Assembly: GCF_963921235.1 (NCBI RefSeq)
Contig: NC_086097.1
Coordinates: 134,790,001-134,854,000, forward strand
Source: Mobula hypostoma
Lineage: Eukaryota
Direction: 5' to 3'
DNA: 64,000 nt
The notes below the pieces were generated by a model. That model saw nothing but the letters and a program-made list of their open reading frames with translations. It ran no database searches and had not been told where the DNA came from. Each line of letters opens with the position of its first letter. Position 1 is the first letter of the stretch. This document shows positions 1,595 through 63,740 of this stretch, piece by piece. A program made the position numbers and the translations under genes.

Positions 1595-1674
1595 TTGTTT
1601 CACTGTCTGAACTGCATGAAGCCAAAACAAAATCCTGCCCTTGTCATCTGAGGCACCATGACCATAAAGTTTAC
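1595..1674 (-). pseudogene. CNDP-family (M20A dipeptidase) pseudogene exon: (G)KLYGHGASDDKGRILFWLHAVQTVKQ
   Basis: AG acceptor at 1676-1675 and a probable GTTGGT donor at 1594. Matches the CNDP1/2 exon GKLYGRGxxDxKGPV but is 80 nt against a recalled 89 nt, and GRG has become GHG. Confidence 0.8.
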
Positions 1675-2770
1675 CTTGGAGAATTTCAGAAAGAAAAACA
1701 ATATTAAAAGGCAGGAAATTTAATTTCACTCCATAGCCCAATTAAAAACACCAGTGGAAGGAAAAATACAAATATAAAACACCAAATGTATGGAGCAAAA
1801 ATCAAGCTGTTTGAGTAACTCAGTCAGGCAGCAATGGACAGTTGACCTTCAGGTTGAGACCCTGTTTGGAAAGATGGAGCAATTTGGATAAAGGATCATG
1901 ACACAAAACATCATTTCCCTCCACAGATGCTGCCTGACTCAGTTCTTCAGACAGCTCTTCTGTCTCCAATGTTAAGGAGCAGCTTTACAATACTAGGTCT
2001 GTCACTGTAATGTTGTCTGACATGATTTCATACAAATCAATACACTAAACCACCAAGTGATGCTCTGAGATGATTTGGCCGATCAGAGATTAGTAAGCAG
2101 CAATCCATGAGGGTGTGGGCTTTTAGAAACACCTTGGAAGATGCATATTAGGACAGTTAAAATGCTGGTGAGAGAAGGTTTTAAAGAAGGCAGAAGGTTG
2201 TAGTGAAGGTGTAACAGAATGGAAGGTGGAGTAATTGAATTTGGGATGCAGAAGAGCTGGAAGCACCCAGTTATCTCAGAGCAATAATGTACACAAGAGT
2301 CAAAATTTTGTTGTGTTTTGGATGGGTGCATTGATCCACCTTTTGGGACAGACGTTCATGCGTTTCCATTAACATACATCAAGCTTTGATGTTCAGTTAG
2401 AGGGGTTTGTTGTGTAATTCCCTGCTGGACATTCCCCTTGCCCCTCACCTTCCTCTCCCCCAACCCCGTCCCCTCCTGCTATATGTCCCTGATTGGAACA
2501 TTTGTAGGGTTGGAAGAGGTAGGCTTGGATGAGCCTTAACTGGATACAAAGGGGTGAGAATTCTTGCATCAAGGTGTTGGACATCCAGGCTTTACTGAAA
2601 GATCATTGACAGTCATGCCGTGAATTAGATGATCAAGACAATGAAGGAATTTGGTTATATTTGTTCAAAAATAAAGAAGAAATGATCATAAACAGGACAA
2701 TATACAGAGTGCAGGAGGCCAGTAGCCAGTGGACTGTAGAAGTCAGTGTGCACACAAACCCAACACTGAC

Positions 2771-2912
2771 CATCCTGTTCAGACAAGACATAAGGGTCTG
2801 TTGCAGGTTGAACATCGATGTGTCCATAAACACAGACAGTTGTTTTATTTGGATCTGTTCCCAGTTCATCCAGAATCACTGGTGGTATGGGAATTGTTCT
2901 TCCATTGGGAAG
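2771..2912 (-). pseudogene. CNDP-family pseudogene exon: LPNGRTIPIPPVILDELGTDPNKTTVCVYGHIDVQPATDPYVLSEQDG
   Basis: AG acceptor and GTCAGT donor; contains the metal-binding YGHxDVQPA motif; 142 nt, lacking 7 codons including the conserved DGW. Confidence 0.9.
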
Positions 2913-3788
2913 CTATGGAAAGGATGGAAAAAAAGTCACCAGCAACAGTTAAAAAAAAAATTAACCGAATAGATTATCAAAAGGCAAAGTCAGCTTTTAA
3001 GTTTTGACTGGAATACTGCTTTTTTTTTCAACTACTTACTGAGCCCAAAATCAATCTTCACCTGTCATAACAATGACGTATTTCTTATTGAACATTGTCT
3101 TATTTAATGTCACGGACATGCTTACGTAAACACTTAAAAATCAAAAGGCTGGAAACACAATGCCTAGTTGTTGTCACAACAAATGAACAATGGAGGGAAA
3201 TGCCATTTGGTGCATCTGGTCTAGACTTGCATTGATGCATTCTTACTCCAACTTTCCAGCTTTTCTCCTTTATACACTCCCTAGATCAACCCACCTGAAA
3301 CACAGCTTGTCCATTTATTTCAAACATTTCATACTACGTTCCTGTGTTGTGTTCTGCATTGATCCCAGTCCAAACAGTTTTTGATCTCAGCATGTTGAGG
3401 AAGTATTTTTCTTTTATTCACTGACAATCCCAGTGTTAATTGCCTGTCTGGGATTGCTTTGGAATGGAATATCAGAGGCTCAGTCAGAGGCAATCACATG
3501 GCTGTAGGTCCAGAAATCCACGAGCCCAGTCCCACCCAGAGCAGCATTCCAACTGCAGTAAGATTCCCACCCAGACCGGAGCAGGTAAGGATGGGAGATT
3601 TTCTTCCCCCGAGTTGTAAGTTACTGTTACTGGCTTTTCAAACAATCCACATCTTCACACAGCCCTCTCAGGAGTGAGCTCTGAGAGAATGTGGGGAGCG
3701 GGGCACAGTAGGTCGCATCCTGCACTGACATGTAGCACTTTGGAGCTGGAGAAGCAACTCTCCTGGGTTACCTGTGGTGTAACCTTCC

Positions 3789-4493: not shown

Positions 4494-6164
4494 CAGTGCC
4501 TTTAAAAAGCATTCATCACCCACCCCCCCCCGCCCGCTCCCCGTGGGAAGTTTTCAAGTTTTATTGTTTTACAACATTGAATCACAGTGGATTTAACTTA
4601 TGTCTTTTTGACACTGATCAACAGAAAATGACTCTTTTGTGTCGAAGTGAAAACAGATCTTTACAAAGTGATCTAAATTAATTACAAATATAAAATACAA
4701 AATAATTGATTACATAAGTATTCACCCACACCCCCCCCCCTTTCATGTGACACACCAAATCATCACCAGTGAAGCCATTTGGTTTTAGAAGTCACATAAT
4801 TAGTTAAATGGAGATCGGTTTTTGGAGACCTGTGTGCAGTCAAGGTGTTTCAGTTGATTGTAGTAAAAATACACCTGTATCTGGAAGGTCCAACTGCTGG
4901 TGAATCAGTGTCCTGGCAAAAACTACACCACGAAGACAAAAGAACACTCCAAGCAACTCCACAAAAAGATTATTGAAAAGCACAAGTCAGGAGATGGATA
5001 CAAGAAAATTTCCAAGTCACTGAATATCCCTTGGAGTACAGTTCAGTCAATCATCAAGAAATGGGAAGAATATGGCACAGTTGTAAATCTGCCTAGAGCA
5101 GGCCATCCTCAAAAACTGAGTGACCGTACAAGGGGACTAGTGAGGGAGGTCACCAAGAGACCTGTGACAACTCTGGAGGAGTTACAAGCTTCAGTGGCTG
5201 AGATGGGAGAGACTGTGCAGACAACAACTGTTGCCCGGGTGCTTCACCAGTCACAGCTTGGTGGGAGAGTGGCAAAGAGAAAGCCACTATTGAAAGAAAA
5301 CTCACATGAAATCTCAGTGGGAGTTTGTCAGAAGGCATATTGAGGATTGTAAAGTCAGCTGGAAGAAGGTTCTATGATGTCATGAAACCAAAGTTGAGTT
5401 TTTGGGCCATCAGACTAAATGCTATGTTTGACGTAAGCCAAACACCACACATCATCAAAAACACACCATCCCTACCATGAAGCATGATGGTGGCTGTATC
5501 ATGCTGTGGGGATGCTTCACTGCAGCAGGCCCTGATAGACTTGTGAAGGTAGAGGGTAAAACAAATGCAGCAAAATACAGGGAAAACCTGATGCAGTCTA
5601 CAAGAGAACTGTGACTGGGAGAAGATTTGTTTTCCAGCAAGACAAAGACCCCAAGCATAAAGCCAAAGCTACAAAGGAATGGCTTAAAAACAACAAAGTT
5701 AATGCCCTGGAGAGGCCAAGTCAGAGTCCAGACCTCAATCCAATTGAGAATTTGTTGCTGGACTAGAAAATGGCTGTTCACTCAAAATCCCCTTGCAATC
5801 TGACGGAACAAGCAGTTTTGTAAAGAAGAATGGGGAAAAATTTCAGTATCCTGATGTGCAAGGCTGATAGAGACCTATCCACACAGACTCAAGGCTGTAA
5901 TTGCTGCCAAGGTGCATCTACTAAATAATGACTTGAAGGGGGTGAGTAATTATAGAAAATTATAGTAATTATGCGATCAATTAGTTTGTGTTTTATATTT
6001 GTAATTAATTTAGATCACTTTGTACAGATCTGTTTTCACTTTGACATGAATCTTTTTCTGTTGATCAGTGCCAAAAAAGCCAAATTAAATCCACTGTGAT
6101 TCAATGTTGTAAAACAACAAAACATGAAATCTTCCAAGGGGGTGAATACTTTTTCCAGGCAGTA
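4494..6164 (+). mobile_element. Tc1-family DNA transposon, full length, defective transposase, long IR/DR-type TIRs
   Basis: Begins CAGTGCC; about 220-bp inverted repeats at 4494-4727 and 5938-6164. Transposase remnants at about 4930-5930: paired-like HTH (GYKKISKSLNIPWSTVQSIIKKW), [18 protein letters not shown]; start codon is ACG, with stops and frameshifts. Confidence 0.92.
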
Positions 6165-6807: not shown

Positions 6808-9561
6808 ATATTCAATATTCAGGAGGGATAGACATGAAGGAAGGGGAGGTGGGGTGGCGTTGCTGGTTAAAAAAGAGATTAACGCAATAGAAAGGAAGGA
6901 CATAAGCTGGGAAGATGTGGAATTGATATGGGTAGAGCTGCGTAACACTAAGGGGCAGAAGACGCTGGTGGGAGTTGTGTACAGGCCACCTAACAGTAGT
7001 AGTGAGGTCGGAGATGGTATTAAACAGGAAATTAGAAATGTGTGCAATAAAGGAACAGCAGTTATAATGGGTGACTTCAATCTACATGTAGACTGGGTGA
7101 ACCAAATTGGTAAAGGTGCTGAGGAAGAGGATTTCTTGGAATGTATGCGGGATGGTTTTTTGAACCAACATGTCGAGGAACCAACTAGACAGCAGGCTAT
7201 TCTGGACTGGGTTTTGAGCAATGAGGAAGGGTTAATTAGCGATCTTGTCGTGAGAGGTCCCTTGGGTAAGAGTGACCATAATATGGTGGAATTCTTCATT
7301 AAGATGGAGAGTGACATAGTTAATTCAGAAACAAAGGTTCTGAACTTAAAGAGGGGTAACTTTGAAGGTATGAGACGTGAATTAGCTAAGATAGACTGGC
7401 AAATGACACTTAAAGGGTTGACGGTGGATATGCAATGGCAAGCATTTAAAGGTTGCATGGATGAACTACAACAATCGTTCATCCCAGTTTGGCAAAAGAA
7501 TAAATCAAGGAAGGTAGTGCACCCGTGGCTGACAAGAGAAATTAGGGATAGTATCAATACCAAAGAAGTAGCATACAAATTAGCCAGAGAAAGTGGTTCA
7601 CCTGAGGACTGGGAGAAATTCAGAGTTCAGCAGAGGAGGACAAAGGGCTTAATTAGGAAGGGGAAAAACGATTTTGAGAGAAAACTGGCAGAGAACATAA
7701 AAACGGACTGTAAAAGCTTTTATAGATATGTAAAAAGGAAAAGACTGGTGAAGACAAATGTAGGTCCCCTGCAGACAGAAACAGGTGAATTGATTATGGG
7801 GAGCAAGGACATGGCAGACCAATTGAATAACTACTTTGGTTCTGTCTTCACTAAGGAGGACATAAATAATCTTCCAGAAATAGTAAGGGACAGAGGGTCC
7901 AGTGAGATGGAGGAACTGAGTGAAATACATGTTAGTAGGGAAGTGGTGTTAGGTAAATTGAAGGGATTGAAGGCAGATAAATCCCCAGGGCCAGATGGTC
8001 TGCATCCTAGAGTGCTTAAGGAAGTAGCCCAAGAAATAGTGGATGCATTAGTGATAATTTTTCAAAACTCGTTAGATTCTGGACTAGTTCCTGAGGATTG
8101 GAGGGTGGCTAATGTAACCCCACTTTTTAAAAAAGGAGGGAGAGAGAAACCGGGGAATTATAGGCCAGTTAGCCTAACGTCGGTGGTGGGGAAACTGCTG
8201 GAGTCAGTTATCAAGGATGTGATAACAGCACATTTGGAAAGCGGTGAAATGATCGGACAAAGTCAGCATGGATTTGTGAAAGGAAAATCATGTCTGACGA
8301 ATCTCATAGAATTTTTTGAGGATGTAACTAGTAGAGTGGATAGGGGAGAACCAGTGGATGTGGTATATTTGGATTTTCAAAAGGCTTTTGACAAGGTCCC
8401 ACACAGGAGATTAGTGTGCAAACTTAAAGCACACGGTATTGGGGGTAAGGTATTGGTGTGGGTGGAGAATTGGTTAGCAGACAGGAAGCAAAGAGTGGGA
8501 ATAAACGGGACCTTTTCAGAATGGCAGGCGGTGACTAGTGGGGTACCGCAAGGCTCAGTGCTGGGACCCCAGTTGTTTACAATATATATTAATGACTTGG
8601 ATGAGGGAATTAAATGCAGCATCTCCAAGTTTGCGGATGACACGAAGCTGGGTGGCAGTGTTAGCAGTGAGGAGGATGCTAAGAGGATGCAGGGTGACTT
8701 GGATAGGTTGGGTGAGTGGGCAAACTCATGGCAGATGCAATTTAATGTGGATAAATGTGAAGTTATCCACTTTGGTGGCAAAAATAGGAAAACAGATTAT
8801 TATCTGAATGGTGGCCGATTAGGAAAAGGGGAGGTGCAACGAGACCTGGGTGTCATTATACACCAGTCATTGAAAGTGGGCATGCAGGTACAGCAGGCGG
8901 TGAAAAAGGCGAACGGTATGCTGGCATTTATAGCGAGAGGATTCGAGTACAGGAGCAGGGAGGTACTACTGCAGTTGTACAAGGCCTTGGTGAGACCACC
9001 CCTGGAGTATTGTGTGCAGTTTTGGTCCCCTAATCTGAGGAAAGACAACTTTGCCATAGAGGGAGTACAAAGAAGGTTCACCAGATTGATTCCTGGGATG
9101 GCAGGTCTTTCATATGAAGAAAGACTGGATGAACTGGGCTTGTACTCGTTGGAATTTAGAAGATTGAGGGGGGATCTGATTGAAACGTATAAGATCCTAA
9201 AGGGATTGGACAGGCTAGATGCGGGAAGATTGTTCCCGATGTTGGGGAGTTCCAGAACGAGGGGTCACAGTTTGAGGATAGAGGGGATGCCTTTTAGGAC
9301 CGAGATTAGGAAAAACTTCTTCACACAGAGAGTGGTGAATCTGTGGAATTCTCTGCCACAGAAAACGGTTGAGGCCAGTTCATTGGCTATGTTTAAGAGG
9401 GAGTTAGATATGGCCCTTGTGGCTACGGGGGTCAGGGGGTATGGAGGGAAGGCTGGGTTCTGAGTTGGATGATCAGCCATGATCATAATAAATGCCGGTG
9501 CAGGCTCGAAGGGCCGAATGGCCTACTCCTGCACCTATTTTCTATGTTTCTATGTTTCTAT
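6808..9561 (+). mobile_element. Young CR1 LINE, 5'-truncated within the endonuclease, ORF2 uninterrupted
   Basis: Open frame to 9463 with APE motifs (VYRPP, GDFN, LDWV, SDH) and RT motifs ([30 protein letters not shown]); 3' UTR ends in a (TTTCTATG)n tail. Confidence 0.96.
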
Positions 9562-10315
9562 AAACATGACCCAGAATGTTGTCAGGTCTTCACGCAAGTC
9601 CTAAAACTAGACAGAGAACCCAATTAAATAAATAACACAAAAAACTGTAAACACCACTGTAACTGGCCAACCTACTTCACAATCCCCTTCCCACGTTTGC
9701 CCTTCACCACGAGGAAGAGCGGGGACAGATGGTGCATGCAGTTACACAACATGCCTTGGAATAGCTTAACTGTTTCTTCATCGTCACTGGGTTAAAACTA
9801 TGAAGCTTCCTCTGCAGTAGTAACCCTGAGCCTCCAATTGCATTTCACTGTAATTCTCTGTCCCACTCAGACCTCTCAATTTTTGCCCTCCTACAGTTTA
9901 AGCAAAGCCCATACATAAGTGAGGAATACCTCACCTTCCCACCATGCAGCAGAACTCAACAATTAATTCCCCAATTTTAGATAACTATCCTTTCTGGTTC
10001 GTCCTCTCCCAGGCATTCTCCCTCATCAGGCAGAAGATCTGAAAGCTTAAAAGCACATACGGCTAGAGTCAAGGACGGCTTCTATTCCAGTTATCAGAGT
10101 CCTGACCTCATATGTGCTAAAAGATGGGCTCCTGTTCTCCAACGTACTTCATCACTGCCCTTGCACTTTGTCTGGCTATATTGCACTTACCCGGTAACTG
10201 TAACACTATATTCTGCATAACAACAGGAATTCTGCAGATGCTGGAAATTCAAGCAACATACATCAAAGTTGCTGGTGAACGCAGCAGGCCAAGCAGCATC
10301 TATAGGAAGAGGCGC

Positions 10316-10351
10316 AGTCGACGTTTCAGGCCGAGACCCTTCGTCAGGACT
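10316..10351 (-). ncRNA. Minimal type I hammerhead ribozyme motif
   Basis: Reverse complement reads AGTC-CTGACGA-AGGGTCTCGGCCT-GAAA-CGTC/GACT. Confidence 0.75.
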
Positions 10352-10373
10352 AACTGAAGTCCCTCCTTCAGTT

Positions 10374-10409
10374 AGTCCTGACGAAGGGTCTCGGCCTGAA
10401 ACGTCGACT
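10374..10409 (+). ncRNA. Minimal type I hammerhead ribozyme motif
   Basis: Core CUGACGA 10378-10384, short stem II, GAAA 10398-10401, palindromic ACGU in place of stem III, GUC cleavage triplet ending at 10405, stem I AGUC/GACU. Confidence 0.78.
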
Positions 10410-10984
10410 GTGCCTCTTCCTATAGATGCTGCTTGGCCTGCTGCGTTCACCAGCAACTTTGATGTATGTTACTATATTCTGCATTCTGATTTTCCTTTAC
10501 GACCTCAATATATGGAATGATCTGTCCGGATGGCATACAAACAAACGCTTTTCACTGCATCATGATACATGTGACAACAGTAAACCAATACATTGCATCA
10601 GAACTGCATGATTTTGAAGAAAGGTAAACAACCTGTAAAGCCACCTGCTTCTCTCATCCCGGCTGCTGCCTGACCGGCTGGGGATTTCCAGCTCCTACAG
10701 TACACCGTATCTCATGGTTCCAACATTCTTTTATTTGTACTCGCCTGTTTTTACACGTCTCCCCAGTTTACAGCCCCTATAAACTGTCACTGTGTTATTT
10801 TTTTCAGTTATATAAAGAGCGAAAGGGAGGTGAGAGTTTATATCGGACCACTGAAAAAATGATACTGATGAGGTAGCAATGGGGGACAAAGAAATGGCAG
10901 ACGAACTGGGAAATATTGTATATCAGTCATTCAAGACAGTTACATTGAGCAAACACCAGGTGGTGATGAATCTGTAAAATCCGG

Positions 10985-12005: not shown

Positions 12006-12347
12006 TTCCTGTTCTGACATGGCCTCCTCTTATGCCACGATGAGGCCGCTCTTAGAGTGGAGCAGCAACACTTTGCATTCCGTCTGGATAGCCTCCTACC
12101 TGATAGCATGATTTTTCCTTCCATTTAAAAAAAACTCCCTCTCACCATCTTCTATTCTCCACTCTAGCCTCTACCTTTGCTCACCTGCCTATCACCTCCC
12201 ATTGGGGCCCCTTCTCCTTCCTTTTTCCCTTTGGTTCACTCTCTTCTCCTATCAGATTCCTTCATCTCCAGCCCTTTACTATTCCTACCCACCTGGCTTC
12301 ACCCATCACCTTAGCTATCCTTCTTCCCTTCCCACAACCTTTTATTT
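12006..12347 (+). mobile_element. Old PLE, GIY-YIG C-terminus and 3' UTR (5' half; continues at 17866)
   Basis: Degenerate match to 16065-16180 (EQHLIFRLGSLQPDGM) followed by a pyrimidine-rich UTR. Confidence 0.7.
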
Positions 12348-13006
12348 TAGAAACATAGAAAATAGGTGCAGGAGTAGGCCATTCGGCCCTTCGAGCCTGC
12401 ACCACCATTCAGTATGATCATGGCTGATCATCCAACTCAGAACCCTGTACCTGCCTTCTCTCCATAGCCCCTGATCCCTTTAGCCACAAGGGCCATGTCT
12501 AACTCCCTCTTAAATATAGCCAATGAACTGGCCACAACTGTTTCTTGTGGCAGAGAATTCCACAGATTCGCCGCTCTCTGCGTAAAGAAGTTTTTCCTCA
12601 TCTCGGTCCTAAAAGGCTTCCCCTTTATCCTTAAACTGTGACCCCTCATTCTAGACTTCCCCAACATCGGGAACAATCTTCCTGCATCTACCCTGTCCAG
12701 TCCCTTTAGGATTTTATATGTTTCAATAAGATCCCCCCTCAATCTTCTAAATTCCAGCGAGTATAAGCCTAGTCGATCCAGTCTTTCATCCTATGAAAGT
12801 CCTGCCATCCCAGGAATCAATCTGGGGAACCTTACTTGTACTCCCTCTATGGCAAGAATGTCTTTCCTCAGATTAGGGGACCAAAACTGCACACAATACT
12901 CTAGACGCAAACAACAGGAATTCTGCAGATGCTGGAAATTCAAGCAACACACATCAAAGTTGCTGGCGAACGCAGCAGGCCAAGCAGCATCTATAGGAAG
13001 AGGCGC

Positions 13007-13042
13007 AGTCGACATTTCAGGCCGAGACCCTTCGTCAGGACT
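13007..13042 (-). ncRNA. Hammerhead motif in the PLE 3' UTR (left arm)
   Basis: AGTC-CTGACGA-AGGGTCTCGGCCT-GAAA-TGTC/GACT on the minus strand. Confidence 0.65.
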
Positions 13043-13334
13043 AACTGAAGGAAGAGTGAGTAAGGGATTTGAAAGCTGGAGGGGGAGGGGGAGATGCAAA
13101 ATGATAGGAGAAGACAGGAGGGGGAGGGATAGAGCCGAGAGCTGGACAGGTGATAGGCAAAAGGGGATACGAGAGGATCATGGGACAGGAGGTCCGGGAC
13201 GAAAGACGGGGGGGGGTGACCCAGAGGATGGGCAAGAGGTATATTCAGAGGGACAGAGGGAGAAAAAGGAGAGTGAGAGAAAGAATGTGTGCATAAAAAT
13301 GAGTAACAGATGGGGTACGAGGGGGAGGTGGGGC

Positions 13335-14745
13335 CTAGCGGAAGTTAGAGAAGTCAATGTTCATGCCATCAGGTTGGAGGCTACCCAAACGGAATATAAG
13401 GTGTTGTTCCTCCAACCTGAGTGTGGCTTCATCTTTACAGTAGAGGAGGCCGTGGATAGACATGTCAGAATGGGAATGGGATGTGGAATTAAAATGTGTG
13501 GCCACTGGGAGATCCTGCTTTCTCTGGCGGACAAAGCGTAGATGTTCAGCAAAGCGGTCTCCCAGTCTGCGTCGGGTCTCACCAATATATAAAAGGCCAC
13601 ATTGGGAGCACCGGACGCAGTATATCACCCCAGTCGACTCACAGGTGAAGTGATGCCTCACCTGGAAGGACTGTTTTGGGCCCTGAATGTTGGTAAGGGA
13701 GGAAGTGTAAGGGCATGTGTAGCACTTGTTCCGCTTACACGGATAAGTGCCAGGAGGGAGATCAGTGGGGAGGGATGGGGGGGACGAATGGACAAGGGAG
13801 TTGTGTAGGGAGCGATCCCTGCGGAATGCAGAGAGGGGGGGGAGGGAAAGATGTGCTTAGTGGTGGGATCCCGTTGGAGGTGGCGGAAGTTACGGAGAAT
13901 AATATGTTGGACCCGGAGGCTGGTGGGGTGGTAGGTGAGGACCAGGGGAACCCTATTCCTAGTGGGGTGGTGGGAGGATGGAGTGAGAGCAGATGTACGT
14001 GAAATGGGGGAGATGCGTTTAAGAGCAGAGTTGATAGTGGAGGAAGGGAAGCCCCTTTCTTTAAAAAATGAAGATATCTCCCTCGTCCTAGAATGAAAAG
14101 CCTCATCCTGAGAGCAGATGTGGCGGAGACGGAGGAATTGCGAGAAGGGGATGGCGTTTTTGCAAGAGACAGGGTGAGAAGAGGAATAGTCCAGATAGCT
14201 GTGAGAGTCAGTAGGCTTATAGTAGACATCAGTGGATAAGCTGTCTCCAGAGACAGAGACAGAAAGATCTAGAAAGGGGAGGGAGGTGTCAGAAATGGAC
14301 CAGGTAAACTTGAGGGCAGGGTGAAAGTTGGAGGCAAAGTTAATAAAGTCAACGAGTTCTGCATGCGTGCAGGAAGCAGCGCCAATGCAGTCGTCGATGT
14401 AGCGAAGGAAAAGTGGGGGACAGATACCAGAATAGGCACGGAACATAGATTGTTCCACAAACCCAACAAAAAGGCAGGCTTAGCTAGGACCCATACGGGT
14501 GCCCATAGCTACACCTTTAGTTTGGAGGAAATGGGAGGAGCAAAAGGAGAAATTATTAAGAGTAAGGACTAATTCCGCTAGACGGAGCAGAGTGGTGGTA
14601 GAGGGGAACTGATTAGGTCTGGAATCCAAAAAGAAGCGTAGAGCTTTGAGACCTTCCTGATGGGGGATGGAAGTATATAAGGACTGGACATCCATGGTGA
14701 AAATAAAGCGGTGGGGGCCAGGGAACTTAAAATCATCGAAAAGTT
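13335..14745 (-). pseudogene. Inverted copy of the PLE coding region
   Basis: Same peptides as the right arm, the same frameshift near 13838 and an extra TAA (14482-14484 region) replacing TAT. Confidence 0.9.
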
Positions 14746-16199
14746 CAATCCCTTCCGACCTATGTTCGTGACACTTCTCACGCTCTTAAACTTTTCGATG
14801 ATTTTAAGTTCCCTGGCCCCCACCGCTTTATTTTCACCATGGATGTCCAGTCCTTATATACTTCCATCCCCCATCAGGAAGGTCTCAAAGCTCTACGCTT
14901 CTTTTTGGATTCCAGACCTAATCAGTTCCCCTCTACCACCACTCTGCTCCGTCTAGCGGAATTAGTCCTTACTCTTAATAATTTCTCCTTTTGCTCCTCC
15001 CATTTCCTCCAAACTAAAGGTGTAGCTATGGGCACCCGTATGGGTCCTAGCTATGCCTGCCTTTTTGTTGGGTTTGTGGAACAATCTATGTTCCGTGCCT
15101 ATTCTGGTATCTGTCCCCCACTTTTCCTTCGCTACATCGACGACTGCATTGGCGCTGCTTCCTGCACGCATGCAGAACTCGTTGACTTTATTAACTTTGC
15201 CTCCAACTTTCACCCTGCCCTCAAGTTTACCTGGTCCATTTCCAACACCACCCTCCCCTTTCTAGATCTTTCTGTCTCTGTCTCTGGAGACAGCTTATCC
15301 ACTGATGTCTACTATAAGCCTACTGACTCTCACAGCTATCTGGACTATTCCTCTTCTCACCCTGTCTCTTGCAAAAACGCCATCCCCTTCTCGCAATTCC
15401 TCCGTCTCCGCCGCATCTGCTCTCAGGATGAGGCTTTTCATTCTAGGACGAGGGAGATGTCTTCATTTTTTAAAGAAAGGGGCTTCCCTTCCTCCACTAT
15501 CAACTCTGCTCTTAAACGCATCACCCCCATTTCATGTACATCTGCTCTCACTCCATCCTCCCACCACCCCACTAGGAATAGGGTTCCCCTGGTCCTCACC
15601 TACCACCCCACCAGCCTCCGGGTCCAACATATTATTCTCCGTAACTTCCGCCACCTCCAACGGGATCCCACCACTAAGCACATCTTTCCCTCCCCCCTCT
15701 CTCTGCATTCCGCAGGGATCGCTCCCTACACAACTCCCTTGTCCATTCGTCCCCCCCATCCCTCCCCACTGATCTCCCTCCTGGCACTTATCCGTGTAAG
15801 CGGAACAAGTGCTACACATGCCCTTACACTTCCTCCCTTACCACCATTCAGGGCCCCAAACAGTCCTTCCAGGTGAGGCATCACTTCACCTGTGAGTCGA
15901 CTGGGGTGATATACTGCGTCCGGTGCTCCCGATGTGGCCTTTTATATATTGGTGAGACCCGACGCAGACTGGGAGACCGCTTTGCTGAACATCTACGCTC
16001 TGTCCGCCAGAGAAAGCAGGATCTCCCAGTGGCCACACATTTTAATTCCACATCCCATTCCCATTCTGACATGTCTATCCACGGCCTCCTCTACTGTAAG
16101 GATGAAGCCACACTCAGGTTGGAGGAACAACACCTTATATTCCGTCTGGGTAGCCTCCAACCTGATGGCATGAACATTGACTTCTCCGACTTCCGCTAG
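14743..16199 (+). pseudogene. PLE RT-linker-GIY-YIG coding region, 5'-truncated, with one -1 frameshift near 15695
   Basis: The RT frame (ORF 14839-15876) switches in a C-rich tract to LSAFRRDRSLHNSLVHSS...CKRNKCYTC...VIYCVRCSRCGLLYIGET, which stays open to TAG at 16199. Confidence 0.9.
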
Positions 16200-16500
16200 G
16201 CCCCACCTCCCCCTCGTACCCCATCTGTTACTCATTTTTATGCACACATTCTTTCTCTCACTCTCCTTTTTCTCCCTCTGTCCCTCTGAATATACCTCTT
16301 GCCCATCCTCTGGGTCACCCCCCCCCCCCGCCGCCGTCTTTCGTCCCGGACCTCCTGTCCCATGATCCTCTCGTATCCCCTTTTGCCTATCACCTGTCCA
16401 GCTCTTGGCTCTATCCCTCCCCCTCCTGTCTTCTCCTATCATTTTGCATCTCCCCCTCCCCCTCCAGCTTTCAAATCCCTTACTCACTCTTCCTTCAGTT

Positions 16501-16536
16501 AGTCCTGACGAAGGGTCTCGGCCTGAAATGTCGACT
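16501..16536 (+). ncRNA. Hammerhead motif in the PLE 3' UTR (right arm)
   Basis: AGTC-CTGACGA-AGGGTCTCGGCCT-GAAA-TGTC/GACT, about 300 nt after the GIY-YIG stop codon. Confidence 0.65.
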
Positions 16537-17865
16537 GCGCCTCTTCCTACAGATGCTGCTTGGCCTGCTGCGTTCACCAGCAACTTTGATGTGTGTTGCA
16601 CAATACTCTAGGTGTGGTCTCACCAAGGCCTTGTACAACTGCAGTAATATCTCCCTGCTCCTGTACTCGAATCCTCTTGCTATGAATGCCAACATACCGC
16701 CTGCCTTTTTCACCGCCTGCTGTACCTGCATGCCCACTTTCAATGACTGCTGTACAATGACACCCAGGTCTCGTTGCACTTCCCCTTTTCTTAATCGGCC
16801 ACCATTCAGATAATAATCTGTTTTCCTGTTCTTGCCACCAAAGTGGATAACCTTAGTTATCCACATTAAATTTCATCTGCCATGAATTTGCCCACTCACC
16901 TAACCTATCCAAGTCACCCTGCATCCTCTTAGCATCCTCCTCACAGCTGACACTGCCGCCTAGCTTGGTGTCATCAGCAAACTTGAAGATGCTGCATTTA
17001 ATTCCCTAGTCTAAGTCATTAATATATATTGTAAACAACTGAGGTCCCAGCACTGAGCCTTGCGGTACCCCACTAGTCACTGCCTGCCATTCTGAAAAGG
17101 TCCCGTTTATTCCCACTCTTTGCTTCCTGTCTGCCAACCAATTCTCTATCCACATCAATACAATACCCCCAATACCGTGTGCTTTAAGTTTGCACACTAA
17201 TCTCCTGTGTGGGACCTTGTCAAAAGCCTTTTGAAGATCCAAACATACCACATCCACTGGTTCTCCCCTATCCACTCTACTAGTTACATCCTCAAAAGAT
17301 TCTATAAGATTTTTCAGACATGATTTTCCTTTCACAAATCCATGCTGACTTTGTCTGATGAGTTCATCACTTTCCAAATGTGCTGTTATCACATTTTTGA
17401 TAACTGACTCTAGCATTTTCCCCACCTCTGATGTTAGGCTAACCGGTCTATAATTCCCTGGTTTCTCTCTCCCTCCTTTTTTAAAAAGTGGGGTTACATT
17501 AGCCACCCTCCAATCCTCAGGAACTAGTCCAGAATCTAAAGAGTTTTGAAAAATTATCACTAATGCATCCACTATTTCTTGGGCTACTTCCTTAAGCACT
17601 CTGGGATGCAGACCATCTGGCCCTGGGGATTTATCTGCCTTTAATCCCTTCAATTTACCTAACACCACTTTCCTACTAACATGTATTTCCCTCAGTTCCT
17701 CCATCTCCCTGGACCCTCTGTCCCCTACTATTTCCAGAAGATTATTTATGTCCTCCTTAGTGAAGACAGAACCAAAGTAGTTATTCAATTGGTCTGCCAT
17801 GTCCTTGTTCCCCATGATCAATTCACCTGTTTCTGACTGTAAGGGACCTACATTTGTCTTAACCA

Positions 17866-18030
17866 TTTTGGCATCGTTTCCTTTCTTTTCCAGTCCTGAA
17901 GAAGGGTCTCAGCCAGAAACATCGACTGCTTGTTCTTTTCCATGGATGCTGCCTGACCTGCTGAGTTCCTCCAGCATTTTGTGTATGTTGCTTTGGATTT
18001 CCAGAATCTGCTGAATTTCTTAGTATTTAC
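17866..18030 (+). mobile_element. Old PLE 3' end (second half of 12006-12347) with a hammerhead-like motif at 17892-17927
   Basis: AGTC-CTGAAGA-AGGGTCTCAGCCA-GAAACATC-GACT followed by the GATGCTGCC...CCAGCATTTTGTGT terminus. Confidence 0.75.
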
Positions 18031-19679: not shown

Positions 19680-20660
19680 CTTACCAAAGAGCTGATTATT
19701 GATTACAGGAGCAGGAGGTCCATGAGCCAGTCCTCATCAGGGGATCAGAGGTGGAGAGGGTCAGCAACTTTAAATTCCTTGGTGACATCATTTCAGAGGA
19801 TCTATTCTGGGTCCAGCACGTAAATGCCATTACAAAGATGGCTTGGCAGCATCTCTAGCTTTAGAAGTTTGCAAAGATTTGGCATGTCATCTCAAACTTG
19901 ATAAACTTCTATAAATGTGTGGTGGAGGATTCTGACTGGTTGCATCACAGCCTGTTATGGAAACACCAATGCCCTTGTACAGAAAAATCCACTAAAAGTA
20001 GAGGGTAGAGCTGAATTCATCATGGATAACACCCTCTCCATCATTGAGCACATCTACACAGAGCACTGTCACAGGAAAGCAGCATCCATCATCAAGGACC
20101 CCCTTCACCCCCTTCTAGGCCATGTTCTCTTCTTGCTGCAGCCATCAGGAAGCAGGCACAGGAGTCCTGAGACTCAAAACCATCAGGTTCAGGAAGTTCC
20201 AAACAAGGGAAAATCTGAGCAACACACACAAAATGCTGAAGGGACTCTGGAGTTCTGCTGAAGGGTTTCGGCCCAAAACTTCAACTGTACTTCTTTTTTC
20301 ATAGATGCTGCCTGGCCTGCTGATTTCCTCCATTGTGTGATGTTCATAAAGTTATTACCCCTCATCATCAGGCTCTTGAAGTTATCCCTGCTGGTTCATA
20401 GATTATGATAACTGTGCACCCTAACACTACACAGTTCCCACAACCTATGGACTCACTTTCAAGAACTCATACCATGTTCTCAATGTTTATTGCTTATTTA
20501 TTTCTTTGTTTTTGTTTCTTTTTGTATTTGCACATTGGTTGTTTGTTCATCTTGTGTGTAGTTTTTCATTGATTCTATTGTGTCTTTGTATTTACTGTGA
20601 ATGCCCACAAGAAAATGTCATGTGACATGATGTACGTTAGTAATAAATTTACTTTTGACT
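19680..20660 (+). mobile_element. Rex1/Babar-type LINE 3' part with a nested degenerate palindromic mini-PLE (about 20200-20341)
   Basis: TKELIIDYR, NFKFLG, ILTGCITACYGN, RKAASIIKDP; the nested insert is flanked by GTTCAGGAAGTT and GTTCATAAAGTT. Confidence 0.75.
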
Positions 20661-28185: not shown

Positions 28186-28906
28186 ACCTCCAAAAGCACT
28201 CTTCTTCGCCGTGAATCAACAGCCTCACCATTCAAAACACTTCCAACTGAAGTACTTGGAATGTACATGACAACAAGAATTTAACTTTTTCTTTTGCAAA
28301 ACAAGATAGGTATACAGAAAAGTAAGAAAGATACATGATCATTGCCTGCCATTACAGATCATTACAGTCAATGAAGACACACACACACTTGATGTCTACA
28401 TTAATATGTACATTTTCATAGTTTCTCATATTTCTCTTATTGCTAAGATGATTGGGCACCCACAGGCTGAATGGAATAAAAATAATATCAAGGCGACTTG
28501 TGAAGTTACAATGACTGGTACTATTTAAATAGCAGATGAACTACAAAAGCCAAGAACACAAAGTGAATAAGAGGATTAATAGGTTTGTTACTAATACGAC
28601 AGCATCCAGAATCTTGTGCACAACATGGCTGGTCCCCAAAAAGTGGGGAAAGATGGTGCCAAGGCAAATGTGCTGGTGTAGTTGCCATTTGTTGTAACTG
28701 AGACAGAGCGAATTGGCCATTTGGATAATTGATTTTCCAATGATTTGGAACAGATACATGAAAAAGAATGAAATTAACTTTAAGTAGCAGGTCAAACTGA
28801 CCATGGATAAACTGCTTTGCAATAGGGTTTAACAAAGAAAGGATCCCTTGTGTGCAAGTCAAGTTTTGTGGAATGCCTTTATTGGCTACCCTATATCCTA
28901 AACCAT

Positions 28907-29010
28907 CAGTTAGTCCTGACGAAGGGTCTCGGCCTGAAACGTCGACTGCGCCTCTTCCTATAGATGCTGCTTGGCCTGCTGCGTTCACCAGCAACTTTGA
29001 TGTATGTTGT
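28907..29010 (+). mobile_element. 104-bp solo PLE 3' end consisting of a hammerhead motif (28912-28947) plus terminus
   Basis: 13-bp TSD TATCCTAAACCAT at 28894-28906 and 29011-29023; near-identical to 10369-10470. Confidence 0.9.
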
Positions 29011-29974: not shown

Positions 29975-31677
29975 ATCCATTCCATTTTGCCTACTGGCAC
30001 AAAAGGTCCACAGCAGATGCCATTTCACTGGCTCTTCACTCAACCCTGCAACATCTGAACAGCCAGGATGCACAAATCAGGATGCTTTTTATCAACTACA
30101 GCTCGGTATTCATTCCACCGAGATGCAGCACAGAGCGTCACAGAGTCATTCCTGCCTGTGGCCATCAAACTTTACAACTCCTCCCTTGGAGGGTCAGACA
30201 CCCTGAGCCAATAGGCTGGTCCTGGACTTATTTCATAATTTACTGGTATAACTTACATATAATATTTAACTATTTATGGTTCTATTACTATTTATTATTT
30301 ATGGTGCAACTGTAACAAAAACCAATTTCCCCCGGGATCAATAAAGTATGACTATGACTATCATCCCCTCAAAACTAATCAGTAAGCTTCAAGACCTTGG
30401 TCTCAAAACCTCCTTGTGCAACTGGATCCTCAACTTCACTTGCAGACAGCAATCTCAGATTGGCAACATCTCCTCCACAATCACCATCAGTACAGATGCA
30501 CAGCCCCAAGGCCATATTTAAGTTTGCTGATGACACCACTGTTGTAGGCCAAATCTATGGTGGAGAGGAATCAGCATACAGGAGGGATATTGAAAATCTG
30601 GCCGAATGGTGCCACAACAAACTCTTACTCATTGTCAGCAAGACCAAGAAGCTACACACACATGCTGGAGGAACTCAGCAGGCCAGGCAGCAACTATGGC
30701 AAAAGGTACAGTTGACGTTTTGGCCCAAAATGTCAACTGTACTTTTTTCTATAGATGCTGCTTGGCCTGCTGAGTTACTCCAGCACTTGTGTGTGTTGCT
30801 CACATTTTCAGCATCTACAGATTTTCTGTTTGTGATTTGAAGTCTAAGGAGCTCATGATTGACTTCAATGAGCCTGACCTCATTGGAGGATCAGAGGTGG
30901 AGTGGGTCAGCAACTTTAAATTCCTTGGTATTATCATTTCAGAGGACCTGTCCTGGGCCCAGCACTTTAGAGCAATTATGAAGAACTATGACAGTGCCCC
31001 TATTTCCTTAGAAGTTTGCAAAGGTTCAGCATGGCATCAAAAACTTTGACAAACTTCTACAGATGTGTGGTGGAGTGTGTATTGACTGGCTGTATCACAG
31101 CCTGGTATGGAAAAACCAGTGCCCTTGAATGGAAATCCCTACAAAAAATAGTGGATATGGCCAAGACCATCACGGGTAAGGTGCTCCACACCATTGAGCA
31201 CATCTACACGGAGTGGTGTCACAGAAAAGCAGCGTCCATCATGAGGGACTCCCACCAAGGTCATACTCTCTTCTCGCTGACACCATCAAGGTGGTGGTAC
31301 AGGAGCCTCAGGACTCACTACCATCAAATTCAGGAAGTTATTACTCCTCAAACATCAGGTTCTTGAACCAAAGGAGATAACTTCACTTGCCCCATCACTG
31401 AATTGCTCCGACAACCCATGGACTCACTTTCAAGGACCTTTCATCTCATGTTCTTGATATTCATTGCTTATTTATTATTTCTTTTTGTTTCCCACTTTCT
31501 TTTTGTACTTGCTCAGTTTATTGTCTTTTGCACATGGGTGTATGCCCAGTTGCTGCAATCTTTCATTGGTTCTATTATGGTTATTGGATTTATTGAGTAA
31601 GCCCACTAGAAAATGAATCTCAGGGTTGTATATGGTGACATATGTACTTTGATAATAAATTTACTTTGACCTTTGAA
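29975..31677 (+). mobile_element. Rex1/Babar-type LINE with two nested inserts
   Basis: [51 protein letters not shown]; nested LINE 3' end at about 30112-30360 with an (ATGACT)n tail and a mini-PLE at 30654-30840. Confidence 0.85.
30654..30840. mobile_element. Older palindromic mini-PLE
   Basis: Imperfect palindrome centred near 30723; degenerate 13-bp TSD AGACCAAGAAGCT (30641-30653) and AGTCTAAGGAGCT (30841-30853). Confidence 0.75.
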
Positions 31678-40369: not shown

Positions 40370-41570
40370 ATTCCATTTCTCACCCCCCAACTCTCTGCTC
40401 CACTCTCTCATACAATTATCCCTCCCCACTGACCTCCCTCACGGCACTTATCCCTGCAAGTATCACACCACATTCAGAACATTGTGAGTAGCTTTGGTAC
40501 CCGTATCTTAAGAAACATATACTGGCATTGAAGAGGTCCAGAAGTGCTGAAGAATGATCCCAGAATGAAAGCATAACCTATGAGCATTTGATGGCTCCCA
40601 GTCTGTACTCAATGGAGTTTAGGAATCTCATTGAAACCTTCTAAATATTGAAAAACTAGATAAGATGGATTATGTGGAGAGGATGTTTCCTATAGTGGGG
40701 GAGTCTAGGACCAAACGGACAGACTCAGAATAGAAGCAAGTCTCTTTAGAACAAATGAGGAGGAACTTCTTTAGCCGGAGGTGGTGAATCTTTGGAATTC
40801 ATTGCCACGGACAGCTGTGGAAGCCAAATTAATGGGCATATTTAAAGTAGAGGGTGATAGGACCATAAGACCATAAGACAAAGGAGCAGAAGTCGGCCAT
40901 TCGGCCCATCGAGTCTGCTCCGCCATTTTATCATGAGCTGATCCAGTCTCCCATTTAGTCCCACTCCCCTGCCTTCTCACCATAACCTTTGATGCCCTGG
41001 CTACTCAGATACCTATCAATCTCTGCCTTAAATACACCCAATGACTTGGCCTCCACTGCTGCCCGTGGCAACAAATTCCATAGATTCACCACCCTCTGAC
41101 TAAAAAAAAAATGCAGGTTCTTGATTATTAAGTTTCAACTATTACAGGGAGAAGGAAGGAGAATGGGGTTGAGGAGAAAATATATCAGCCATGATGGAAC
41201 AGTAGAGCATAGTTGATGGGCTGAATGGCCAAAATCTGCTCTTGCGTCTTATGGTTTTAAATGCTACAACTGTCCCTACACCTCTCCACCTATTGCCTCC
41301 CCGCCTCTTACATCATTAATCCTCCCCTACCCACAAACCTTCCCCTTCACCTGGTCTCAACCATCACCTGCCAGCTTATACTCTTCCCTGACTATCCCCA
41401 TTCCTTATTCTATCTTCGGTCTACTCCCTTCCGGTCATGATGAAGGGTCTCGGCCTGAAACGTTGACTCTTTATTTCCCTCCACAGATGCTGTCTGACCT
41501 GCTGCATCCCCCCCCAGCATTTTGTGTGTGCTACTCAGGATTTTGCAGCTCCCACAGAATCTCTTGTGTT
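40370..41570 (+). mobile_element. Old PLE fragment split by a CR1 (about 40470-41258) that itself holds an antisense CR1 3' end (about 40862-41110)
   Basis: The linker PTDLPHGTYPCK resumes as KCYNCPYTS at about 41259; degenerate hammerhead at 41433-41468. Confidence 0.75.
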
Positions 41571-43494
41571 TAGATAGATCTGAAGTGGCCTTGCAGTTGT
41601 AAATTTGAATGAATGAACAAGACAACTGGAAAAGACCTGTATCTGCACTCCATCATCAGTGATGGGGGGACTACAGGGTGAAAACACAGCTTGGGTGAAA
41701 ACATTTTGTGGTACCAAAATGTGCCAGCAGGACAAATAATTTTTAAGAGAAGTTCAACAAGGAAAGTAACACTTAAATTGTGACTTTTAAGGCTGCAAAA
41801 CTTTCATAAGTGCTTTCCAAGCAATGAAGCGTTTGTAGTTACTACTGCAATTTAGCAAAACTCAACAATCAATCAATACACAGCAAGGTAATATATAAAC
41901 TGTGTTGGGAATTTTGGAGAAGGAGAAATAATGCCTAGATAGCAGGGGTACATTCTGATCTTCTTTAAATAATCCACAGGATCGCAATATCCATTTCAAA
42001 AGACTGATGAGATCTGAGTTCAACATATCAAATGAAGTGCCTCTGACAGTGCAATTTTTTTGGAACAGGTCTTGAATCCATGGCCTGACTGAGAAAGGAG
42101 TGGTGTCCCTGAGTTATGCTGACACAAATGAGTGCATTTAACATAATAACGAGATTTGAGCAGATTTTAAGTGACCAAAGGGAAGCACAGATTAATGTAG
42201 TAGTACACTTAACAAGAACAGCAATCTAAGAGACAGACTGGCTTTTGTTCCATCTCGAAGAGGACCTAAAGTTGTACCTGCGGCTCATATGTTCTCTCAG
42301 CTCATGAGTCATAACCATAACACATGAATCAACTGTTTAGCTGTAGCCCTGGCTTTCAAAAGATCACATTAATTGCATTCAATGAAAGCACTGAAGAAAC
42401 TGTAAGATTATAATCTCATGATTAGGAAAATCAACTAATTTATGTGACATTAAAGCTTTTAGAAATTTTATAAATCTAGTTAATATCTTCTTCAGCACTA
42501 GCTGTGGAATCTGATCACAAAATACAATGTTAAACCAATATATAATCAATGACCCAACACAGAATTTATTGTAGACATGAGCCAACGGACTTCTGTTCCA
42601 CAAGAGCCTTCTCCAAATCTAATCCATAATAAATCAATACGTTCTTCAATATCTATCCTTCCCATTGTTATCTTGTTTATCCCTGAAAAACATCCAAGTT
42701 ATTCACATCAATTCTCATTCCCATAAATGCTTTACCCAGAGTACTTTTGAGTGCCTGAAAAGTATAGCAGCACAGAGCTGAGCTTGAAGGCACTTAATGG
42801 AATCAGTCAAGGTTTATCTTGTAGCAACTCAGTCCGAGGTCAGAGGTTCCAGCTCTACATTCCAGAAACTTAAACAACCCCAATGTAGGAGTGACAGAGT
42901 TTTGTATTTTTGCATGCGCTGTTTTTAGGATATGATCCCAAACCACACAGCAACCCCTGCACCCTACCATCTTCCCTCTCAGTTTAACATAAAAGATCTC
43001 ATGGCATTAATAATTAGAGTATTGCTCCAGAAATAAAGAATGAAATTTCCTATGAATGGCCTAATGTTAACTGCTCAGCTAAAATCTGATCTGGTTATCG
43101 CATCCATAAACTGGCTGTAATATTTCTTTCCTCACAACTATGACTATATTTTAAGATAATATGCTTGGTCATGAAGAATTTTGGAATTTCTCCTGAGGCC
43201 CTGTGGAGGTTAACCCTAAAGGAAAGCTAAACAATAACTTAGACTAAAAGAAATAGGGTATGTAAAGTCAGACAATATTTGGAGACTCACATGGAGCTGG
43301 ACAGAGGCCTCTTCCTTTCCATAAATCTGTGATGAAAAGTTCTACACTCTCCCCATTAGAATGCCCCTCATTATTGTGCTGTCTTATGACAATTTTGTGG
43401 CTCAAAATACCTCAGGATATTCACCATTTCTAAAACTGCTGGACAACTGCATTTTCCAAGTAGTTCTGGCTATGATGAGCTGAACTTTGTGTAC

Positions 43495-43647: not shown

Positions 43648-43729
43648 CTGCAATAATCCAAAGGAAAAGAGTTAAAAGAAAAGTTAATCAAAGTAACATA
43701 TATACAGTGGTTATGGAAAACCTTTCAGT

Positions 43730-43929
43730 AACGCACACAAAATGCTGGAGGAACTCAGCAGGCTAGGCAGCACCTGTGGAAAAGAGTAAACAGTCGACAT
43801 TCTGATGAAGGGTCTCAGCCCGAAACATCGACTGTTTACTCTTTTCTATAGATGCCGCTTGGCCAGCTGAGTTCCTCCAGCATTTTGTGTGTGTTGCTTG
43901 ATTTCCAGCATCTGCAGATTTTCTTGTCT
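43730..43929. mobile_element. Older palindromic mini-PLE with a hammerhead core at 43802-43833
   Basis: Arms about 43730-43800 and 43824-43895; CTGATGA-AGGGTCTCAGCCC-GAAACATC-GACT. Confidence 0.8.
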
Positions 43930-59634: not shown

Positions 59635-60468
59635 CTGTATGAAACAGCCAAGTATTACTGGCATCAGCCCAGGTTTGGAAAAAAGCACAAAACTGTACAA
59701 ATATGCACTTATTTTTGAAGAATGTTTTTTGATCCCACCCCATATAGGTGAAAAGAATTATGGTGTTAAACAGAACAGACGCTTACAGAGGTAAATTAGT
59801 TAATTTCAAATTAATTAATGTGTTTGCACCTTTCCTCTCCAACAGTAACAATTGGGTTTTGATAAAATGCCTTAAATATGATTATAAAGGTCAGTGGTTA
59901 AAACACAGACAAAATCAAAACTGTAACAGAATGTATAGAATTTAACACATTCTCAACTGAATTTTATATTCAATTACAGGAAAACTTGAGAAAAGGGTTG
60001 GTAAAGGAGAAAGGGAAAGAATAAGCCTCAGACGTCAAAATAAAAAAAAACTGTTTATAAAAAAGAATCTTTACAGCTTTGAAAATACACAGTTAGAAAC
60101 ACTAAATATATCAAGATAATTAACTCAGTTTCTTCAATTCATTTCTGTATCATTGGTTAATATTTATTTTCACCAGTCCTAATAGGACTGATCAAATGCT
60201 TTATGTGGTATCATAAACATGGTTGTAAGGAAATTCTCTTCAAACGGAAGCTTGATCTGACAAAATTACGGAATCACATGATAATGTGAGCTTGCTTTAA
60301 CAATACCTATGTACTTTCTTCAACAAATCCACTTTGGAAAATGGTCAAAATAAACTCCAAACAATAAAAGTAGTCATTTTAATTTAAAAAGAGCTGAAGC
60401 CAACAGCACAATGAAAAGAAAGCAAAATATCTAAGGAAAGTCTGGCTTATCTGTATCTCATTCAGTTA

Positions 60469-63472: not shown

Positions 63473-63740
63473 ATTTATACACCCTGATTTGCCTCTGAGC
63501 AGGAGGTGTTTGCTATTGAGGCAAATCAGGGTAGATAAATCCCCGGGGCCTGACAAGGTGTTCCCTTGGACCCTGGAGGGAGGCAAGTGCAGAGATTGCC
63601 GGGGCCCTAGCAGAGATATTTAAAACATCCTTAGTGACAGGAGAAGTACCAGAGAACTGGAGGATAGCCAATGTTGTTCCACTGTTTAAAAAAGATTCTA
63701 AACATAAACCAGGAAATTACAGGCCAATGAGTCTGATATT
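63473..63740 (+). mobile_element. CR1 RT fragment with a fold-back at its 5' junction
   Basis: DKSPGPD, WRIANVVPLFKK, NYRPMSL; 23-bp inverted repeat at 63473-63495 and 63518-63540. Confidence 0.7.

What the first reader, a model, noticed from the sequence alone, without database searches (positions are those of the whole stretch)
12905..16598. 3.7-kb fold-back Neptune PLE with ribozymes at both ends: largest member of a size series of palindromic insertions
Seen: two 5'-truncated copies head to head. The 43-nt spacer continues the right-arm RT frame (QSLPTYVRDTSHAL), GTT microhomology lies at the junction, and one 13-bp TSD flanks the whole structure, so it was a single insertion. The arms differ at scattered sites (ISDTS/ISNTT, RLRH/RLRR, TAA/TAT), which argues against a read fold-back artefact. 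The same design recurs at 10219, 20200, 30654 and 43730. Knowledge: inverted 5' segments are known in PLEs. Inference: in this family, fold-back or two-ended priming is the usual integration outcome, seeding the genome with ribozyme-tipped hairpins. I cannot tell from the sequence whether this family is already described.
Basis: partly seen in the sequence, partly recalled or inferred. Interest (0 to 1): 0.8.

Follow-up and report, generated by a model that had tools for sequence, protein, structure and literature searches.

The report
Head-to-head Penelope retrotransposon insertion
This is one insertion of a very common jumping gene, laid down as two mirror-image partial copies, a layout already described for this kind of element; in this genome nearly all such mirror pairs have one long-ended and one short-ended arm, which likely means the element copies its RNA from both cut DNA strands at once.

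Summary
Real and mostly known. Window 12905-16598 is one insertion of a young, abundant Penelope-like element with Neptune-type motifs: two 5'-truncated, dead copies head to head, arms about 99% alike, one 13-bp TSD, inside a CR1-type LINE whose frame reads through once the insert is removed. Head-to-head copies with one TSD and a 30-40 nt 'tail' at one end are published PLE features. The genome survey adds numbers. Fold-backs are 12 of 37 insertions in 0.8 Mb of evenly spaced stretches, so about a third, not the usual outcome. 84 of 87 fold-backs pair one tailed arm with one tail-less arm. 79 of 87 have a TSD of 11 bp or more, mostly 13-15. Both cut sites share a mirror-image T preference, and the arms mostly share a source lineage. 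In this copy each arm holds sequence the other lacks, which a simple fold-back of one cDNA cannot make. Best model: two-ended target-primed reverse transcription from staggered nicks, starting at two fixed RNA sites. Larger fold-backs (to 6.1 kb) exist elsewhere. No spanning read was found; ribozyme activity is untested.

The parts
12892..12904 (+). Target-site duplication, left copy (13 bp)
12905..14745 (-). Left arm: 5'-truncated PLE copy (unit positions 1675-3515), tailed end; premature stop and frameshift
12905..12943 (-). 39-nt tail, present on this arm only; in tandem copies it is the start of the next unit's reading frame
13007..13042 (-). Minimal hammerhead motif, left arm (position 15.2 is U, family majority C)
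14743..14745 (+). GTT shared by both arms at the inversion junction
14746..14788 (+). 43-nt spacer, unique to the right arm, in the RT frame
14743..16598 (+). Right arm: 5'-truncated PLE copy (unit positions 1629-3479), tail-less end; RT remnant, frameshift near 15690-15700, Cys linker and GIY-YIG frame ending at 16199
16501..16536 (+). Minimal hammerhead motif, right arm (same U at 15.2); predicted cut after 16532
16599..16611 (+). Target-site duplication, right copy
12348..17865 (-). Host LINE of CR1 type (label recalled from its motifs), split by the insertion
10219..10470 (.). Small fold-back of the same family: tailed left arm, tail-less right arm, 14-bp TSD (10205-10218, 10471-10484)
28903..29010 (+). 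Single tail-less copy of the same family, 13-bp TSD
20200..20339 (.). Decayed fold-back of an older related family; TSD 11 of 14
30654..30836 (.). Decayed fold-back of an older related family; TSD 11 of 14
43727..43924 (.). Decayed fold-back of an older related family; no TSD found

Best explanation
The locus is a single, non-coding insertion of two head-to-head partial copies of a Penelope-like retrotransposon, likely made when the element's enzyme nicked both target strands about 14 bp apart and primed reverse transcription from both nicks. One cDNA likely started at the outer RNA site (giving the tailed arm) and the other about 35 nt further in (the tail-less arm), usually on RNA from the same source copy. 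Both stopped early, and their free ends were likely joined by end-joining repair, with or without microhomology. Shown: structure, TSD, one-tail pairing, mirror-image target preference, shared variants. Inferred: simultaneous priming, a dimer, the joining step.
For: One TSD, and the host frame reads through without the insert. 84 of 87 fold-backs have exactly one tailed arm, while single-orientation copies split 56 tailed, 50 tail-less, 6 other; independent choice predicts about half (p 1.4e-21). 79 of 87 have a TSD of 11 bp or more, 59 of 13-15 bp, against 2 of 300 random position pairs. Among 200 whole insertions, 87 are head to head, 112 single-orientation and 1 complex; none is a plain tail-to-tail pair. 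T is enriched 3, 7 and 8 nt beyond both cuts (62/46%, 67/57%, 54/57%; background 29%; n 64). The tail-less arm reaches further 5' in 26 of 67 two-arm cases, the tailed arm in 24, and 17 are within 10 nt. Arms share 99 non-majority variants against 20 expected (30 elements). A purified Poseidon protein cuts and extends both strands and starts at two RNA sites that bound the tail (PMC11167929).
Against: All genomic inference; no biochemistry on this family. In the Poseidon assay the start site did not differ between strands, which does not by itself predict pairing. The arms disagree at 36 of 536 family-polymorphic non-CpG site pairs: far below the 147 expected for random copies, but above the 5 or fewer expected from fresh mutation (my arithmetic). 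35 of the 36 lie in the last 600 nt, so some arms had different templates or were converted later. Three elements give 41 of the 99 shared variants and 7 of 30 share none. Two thirds of insertions are single-orientation, and only 8 of 25 of those in the evenly spaced sample have a long TSD. No public contig spanning the junction was listed.
Confidence: 0.62

Rival explanations
1. Copy-back: one tailed cDNA folds on its own 3' end, is copied back to the tail-less position and is resolved by the endonuclease; spacers and unequal arms come later from central deletions of an unstable palindrome.
For: Explains one-tail pairing and shared variants at once. Arm lengths correlate (rho 0.70, n 67, mixed sample). 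Craig et al. ascribe the tail to endonuclease resolution of an intermediate (PMC8557442).
Against: Asymmetry does not grow with arm divergence (rho -0.07, n 23), and L218 has 0 differences over 400 nt with a 2,380-nt longer tail-less arm. Discordance at linked family variants cannot come from copying one strand. Tail-less ends also occur alone with TSDs (20 of 49).
Confidence: 0.17
2. Self-priming on an antisense or palindromic template, as proposed for rotifer PLEs; the inverted structure exists before integration.
For: Proposed in PMC3846280 from palindromes at inverted junctions. A 23-nt hairpin overlaps the hammerhead's 5' side, and 58 of 144 fold-back arms end at unit 3360-3399.
Against: Single copies stop there too (29 of 98). 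Long fold-backs have unrelated junctions with no palindrome. It gives no reason for the mirror-image target preference.
Confidence: 0.12
3. Two-ended priming, but on two unrelated RNAs delivered by separate particles.
For: Some elements have clearly different 3' haplotypes in the two arms (L202, L204, L211). This copy differs at one such site.
Against: Discordance is a quarter of the random expectation overall and 1 of 94 upstream of unit 2900. Independent particles do not explain 84 of 87 pairing.
Confidence: 0.07
4. Assembly or read fold-back artefact, or two separate insertions.
For: No spanning contig listed in five public runs.
Against: Each arm has its own private changes (10 and 9), the flanks are not mirrored, there is one TSD, and the host frame is restored. 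The listings were cut and the runs may come from other individuals or species.
Confidence: 0.02

Closest known systems
Canonical EN+ Penelope-like elements, Neptune clade (PMC8557442)
   Same: [quoted passage not shown]
   Different: The passages read give no frequencies. Here one-tail pairing is 84 of 87, the TSD centres on 14 bp, and most fold-backs are two truncated arms with no full-length copy.
Adineta vaga Pen2a/Pen2 and D. virilis Penelope (PMC3846280, PMC2377424)
   Same: Head-to-head inverted ends inside one TSD (8-10 bp), tail on one inverted end, palindrome at the 5' side of the terminal repeat; called typical or most frequent.
   Different: A handful of copies, and explained by antisense self-priming. 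Here tens of thousands are estimated and the data favour two priming events.
Poseidon PAc of Anolis, in vitro (PMC11167929)
   Same: Both strands cut and extended; two RT start sites bounding the tail; hammerhead just upstream; predicted dimer.
   Different: Another clade. The main text read gives no account of inverted insertions or of pairing between start sites.
LINE-1 twin priming (recalled, not read here)
   Same: Both target ends prime reverse transcription and give an inversion inside one TSD.
   Different: In L1 the second primer starts internally, so the pieces do not overlap. Here both arms start at the 3' end and duplicate it.

Membership tests
EN+ Penelope-like element | Single ORF with RT and C-terminal GIY-YIG | tested here: met
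   1,043-codon open frame in 5 genomic copies; RVT_1 E 5e-5 and GIY-YIG E 0.0025, both under Pfam's cut-off in the full protein; GIY-YIG passes the cut-off in the window fragment.
EN+ Penelope-like element | CCHH motif, two Cys between GIY and YIG | tested here: met
   VIYCVRC..CGLLYIG, then AEH and ATHF.
EN+ Penelope-like element | Tandem or partial-tandem pseudo-LTRs and an optional 30-40 nt tail | tested here: met
   3,515-bp unit in tandems L031-L035; 3' ends fall in two groups, about 3470-3490 and 3512-3515.
EN+ Penelope-like element | Minimal hammerhead motif in the terminal repeat | tested here: met
   Core boxes and stems I and II match by pattern in both arms. Not found by Rfam; the lowest-energy fold is a competing hairpin.
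Hammerhead ribozyme | Self-cleavage | not testable with these tools
   Only 6 of 242 arm 5' ends lie at the predicted cut, so there is no genomic sign of cleaved templates.
Neptune clade | CX2-5CxxC linker upstream of a C-terminal GIY-YIG (absent in Penelope/Poseidon) | tested here: met
   CKRNKCYTC at residue 909; 97 of the 100 homologues with a matching EN motif, out of 120, also have it. Nematis shares the motif.
Neptune clade | RT phylogeny groups with named Neptune elements | not testable with these tools
   No labelled reference sequences were on hand; none of the 120 listed homologues bears a clade name. Neptune is itself paraphyletic in PMC8557442.
Naiad / Hydra | N-terminal EN (Naiad); no CCHH (Hydra) | tested here: not met
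   EN is C-terminal and CCHH is present.

The most novel reading that the evidence does not exclude
PLE integration is a coupled two-ended reaction: one particle, probably a dimer, cuts a dyad target with a 14-bp stagger and starts two cDNAs at two fixed sites of the same RNA, one tailed and one tail-less. Inverted ends and the one-sided tail of PLEs would then be a single product of one step, and single-orientation copies the cases where one cDNA failed.
Probability: 0.4. Interest if true: 0.65.

Novelty: new member of a known kind. Interest (0 to 1): 0.4.

Why it matters
How PLEs make their inverted ends and one-sided tail is an open question in the papers read. This family is young and has about 65,000 exact 3'-end matches, so it gives enough copies to turn a qualitative remark into rules: one tailed plus one tail-less arm, a 13-15 bp stagger, and a mirror-image target. 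These rules can be tested in the existing in vitro assay. The genome also keeps an estimated 52,000 (27,000-91,000) near-spacerless inverted repeats from this family, most about 200 bp and some several kb, which bears on genome stability and double-stranded RNA. The locus itself is a dead copy with no sign of function.

Tried and rejected
Rfam scan: no match in the window. Single-strand folding of the hammerhead and tail regions: no better than shuffles (z 0.31 and -0.30). Public runs: only short-word contigs, swamped by the repeat; no listed piece spans the centre junction in X1, X2, X3, X5 or X6, but the listings were cut, so this is no evidence either way. Hammerhead cleavage as the source of 5' ends: rejected, 6 of 242. 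Microhomology as the required joining route: rejected. Later deletion as the main source of arm asymmetry: not supported. My early impression that tailed singles lack TSDs and tail-less singles have them vanished in the larger set: 21 of 51 against 20 of 49. The position-ordered census gave 42 of 87 fold-backs but over-samples two-ended copies, so it is not used for frequency. A dimer prediction for the N-terminal region was not obtained, so the dimer rests on the Poseidon paper alone. Earlier scan notes: nothing found. Literature searches for twin priming in PLEs, for this family in cartilaginous fish and for newer mechanism papers found no matching account (listings only). The library lacks most subscription papers, including Arkhipova 2006, Pyatkov 2004 and Repbase reports, and I opened no supplements, so the family or the pairing rule may already be described.
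Full report
Observation. The window is G000:C1:134790001-134854000 in a 3.48-Gb genome. The closest named protein relative is from the bamboo shark Chiloscyllium punctatum at 72%, so the host is likely a cartilaginous fish. Bases 12905-14745 (-) and 14743-16598 (+) are two copies of one element, head to head. They differ at 19 of 1,798 shared bases and by a 9-nt indel. One 13-bp duplication flanks the whole (12892-12904, 16599-16611). With the insert and one duplicate removed, the surrounding LINE reads through as one frame. GTT is shared at the junction and the next 43 nt belong to the right arm alone. The left arm ends in a 39-nt tail that the right arm lacks. Each arm has its own private changes against the family majority (10 and 9), and both share two. 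That fits a real insertion that has aged, not a mirrored read. Public contigs neither confirm nor refute the junction.

What the element is. Full copies elsewhere have a 3,515-bp unit, often in partial tandems, with a 1,043-codon frame. [quoted passage not shown] No labelled tree could be built, so 'Neptune-type' rests on motifs. The family is young and abundant: 64,745 exact matches to a 30-nt 3' word, and the window's arms lie 0.6-0.7% from the majority sequence. Both arms start inside the RT and carry a frameshift, and the left has a stop, so the locus cannot code for the protein. A minimal hammerhead pattern is present in both arms, each with the same C-to-U change at position 15.2. Activity is untested, and such motifs cleaved poorly alone in PMC4209133.

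How common. In 80 evenly spaced 10-kb stretches from six large contigs I found 37 whole insertions at 84% identity or more; 6 cut by an edge were left out. Twelve are fold-backs (95% interval 18-50%), which scales to roughly 52,000 in the genome. The first 100 pattern matches on C1 fall into 87 insertions, 42 of them fold-backs, but that census favours two-ended copies; 29 of those 42 are under 300 bp. Pooling all loci, targeted and untargeted, gives 200 whole insertions: 112 single-orientation, 87 head to head, 1 complex. Seven fold-backs are longer than this one, up to 6,119 bp.

The rules. 3' ends fall in two groups, tail-less (about 3470-3490) and tailed (3512-3515). Singles use both about equally (50 and 56, with 6 other), yet 84 of 87 fold-backs have exactly one tailed arm, 1 has two and 2 have none. 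79 of 87 have a TSD of 11 bp or more, 59 of 13-15 bp; random position pairs give 2 of 300. In 64 fold-backs with exact 12-16 bp TSDs, T is enriched at 3, 7 and 8 nt beyond each cut, on both strands alike; 30 singles with such TSDs show the same trend. The target is therefore read as a dyad. Junctions vary: 12 of 28 overlap by 1-4 nt, 5 are blunt and 11 have inserts. Many arms stop at unit 3360-3399, in singles (29 of 98) and fold-backs (58 of 144), at a 23-nt hairpin upstream of the hammerhead cut rather than at the cut. This sets the common 200-bp size.

One template or two. In 30 fold-backs with 300 nt or more of overlap, the arms share 99 non-majority variants against 20 expected from other copies; three elements give 41 of them and seven give none. 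At 34 family-polymorphic non-CpG sites, 56 fold-backs with both arms at least 93% identical to the reference disagree at 36 of 536 pairs, against 147 for random copies. The split is 1 of 94 upstream of unit 2900 and 35 of 442 downstream. So the arms usually share a source, but not always in the last 600 nt. Two RNAs, two terminal repeats of one tandem transcript, or later conversion could each explain this; I cannot separate them.

Mechanism. In this copy the tailed arm has 39 nt the other lacks and the tail-less arm has 43 nt the other lacks, so neither can be a plain copy of the other. The same holds for 26 of 67 two-arm cases. Later central deletion could rescue a copy-back model, but asymmetry does not rise with age, and the pair with no differences is the most asymmetric. 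The simplest reading is priming from both staggered nicks, at two fixed RNA start sites, followed by end joining. A purified Poseidon protein does cut and extend both strands and starts at two sites that bound the tail (PMC11167929), though it showed no strand difference in start site. Coupling of the two starts and a dimer are inferred, not shown.

What is known. PMC3846280 calls inverted ends within one TSD, with a tail on one end, the typical Penelope structure and proposes antisense self-priming (passages). PMC2377424 says the inverted form is the most frequent in D. virilis (passages). PMC8557442 says the tail is often at one end only (passages and introduction). PMC4209133 notes paired hammerheads on opposite strands 100-700 bp apart (parts 1-2 of 4). 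Of PMC11167929 I read parts 1-2 of 4, the whole main text. Passages of bioRxiv 10.64898/2026.07.22.740005 report Neptune and Poseidon as widespread in vertebrates; PMC9977147 added nothing (passages). My searches found no two-ended priming account for PLEs and no description of this family, within a library that lacks key older papers and Repbase.

Verdict. The locus is an ordinary dead copy in a known layout, so it is a new member of a known kind. Its value lies in the family-wide pairing rule and the dyad target, which make an open mechanistic question testable. Interest 0.4.

Noticed in passing
window 7746-9552 vs 12348-12904 and 16599-17865: A second copy of the host LINE lies about 3 kb upstream in the opposite orientation, 90-94% alike; probably two separate insertions forming a long inverted pair around the region.
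   Followed up: partly
L035:5327-5375 (and L031, L033): The tail is the first dozen codons of the element's open frame. The tail-less end falls at an ATG in these copies, which reads GTG in the family majority; L034's first Met is codon 28.
   Followed up: partly
L212, L213, L215, L007, L011, L045, L200: Complex insertions with three or more pieces, internal inversions or jumps, often still inside one 13-15 bp TSD with one tailed end; suggests frequent template switching.
   Followed up: no
L216, L212: Long fold-backs whose arms share 10 and 19 rare variants with few private ones: either a diverged source copy or conversion between arms.
   Followed up: no
L122:288-373: A 'single' copy with a 12-nt inverted tail remnant next to the TSD; some singles may be fold-backs with a very short second arm.
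   Followed up: no
window 41434-41571, 17884-18020, 12018-12111, 40418-40460: Further old fragments of related PLE families, 70-88% alike, two with hammerhead-like ends.
   Followed up: no
window 4539-4720 / 5966-6142, 60467-60587 / 61960-62080, 50981-51104 / 63516-63640, 40780-40861 / 41012-41093: Other inverted repeat pairs, 82-91% complementary, not identified.
   Followed up: no
runs X5, X6 (organism B): Words of this family are at saturating depth in a second organism too, so the family is shared with a close relative.
   Followed up: no
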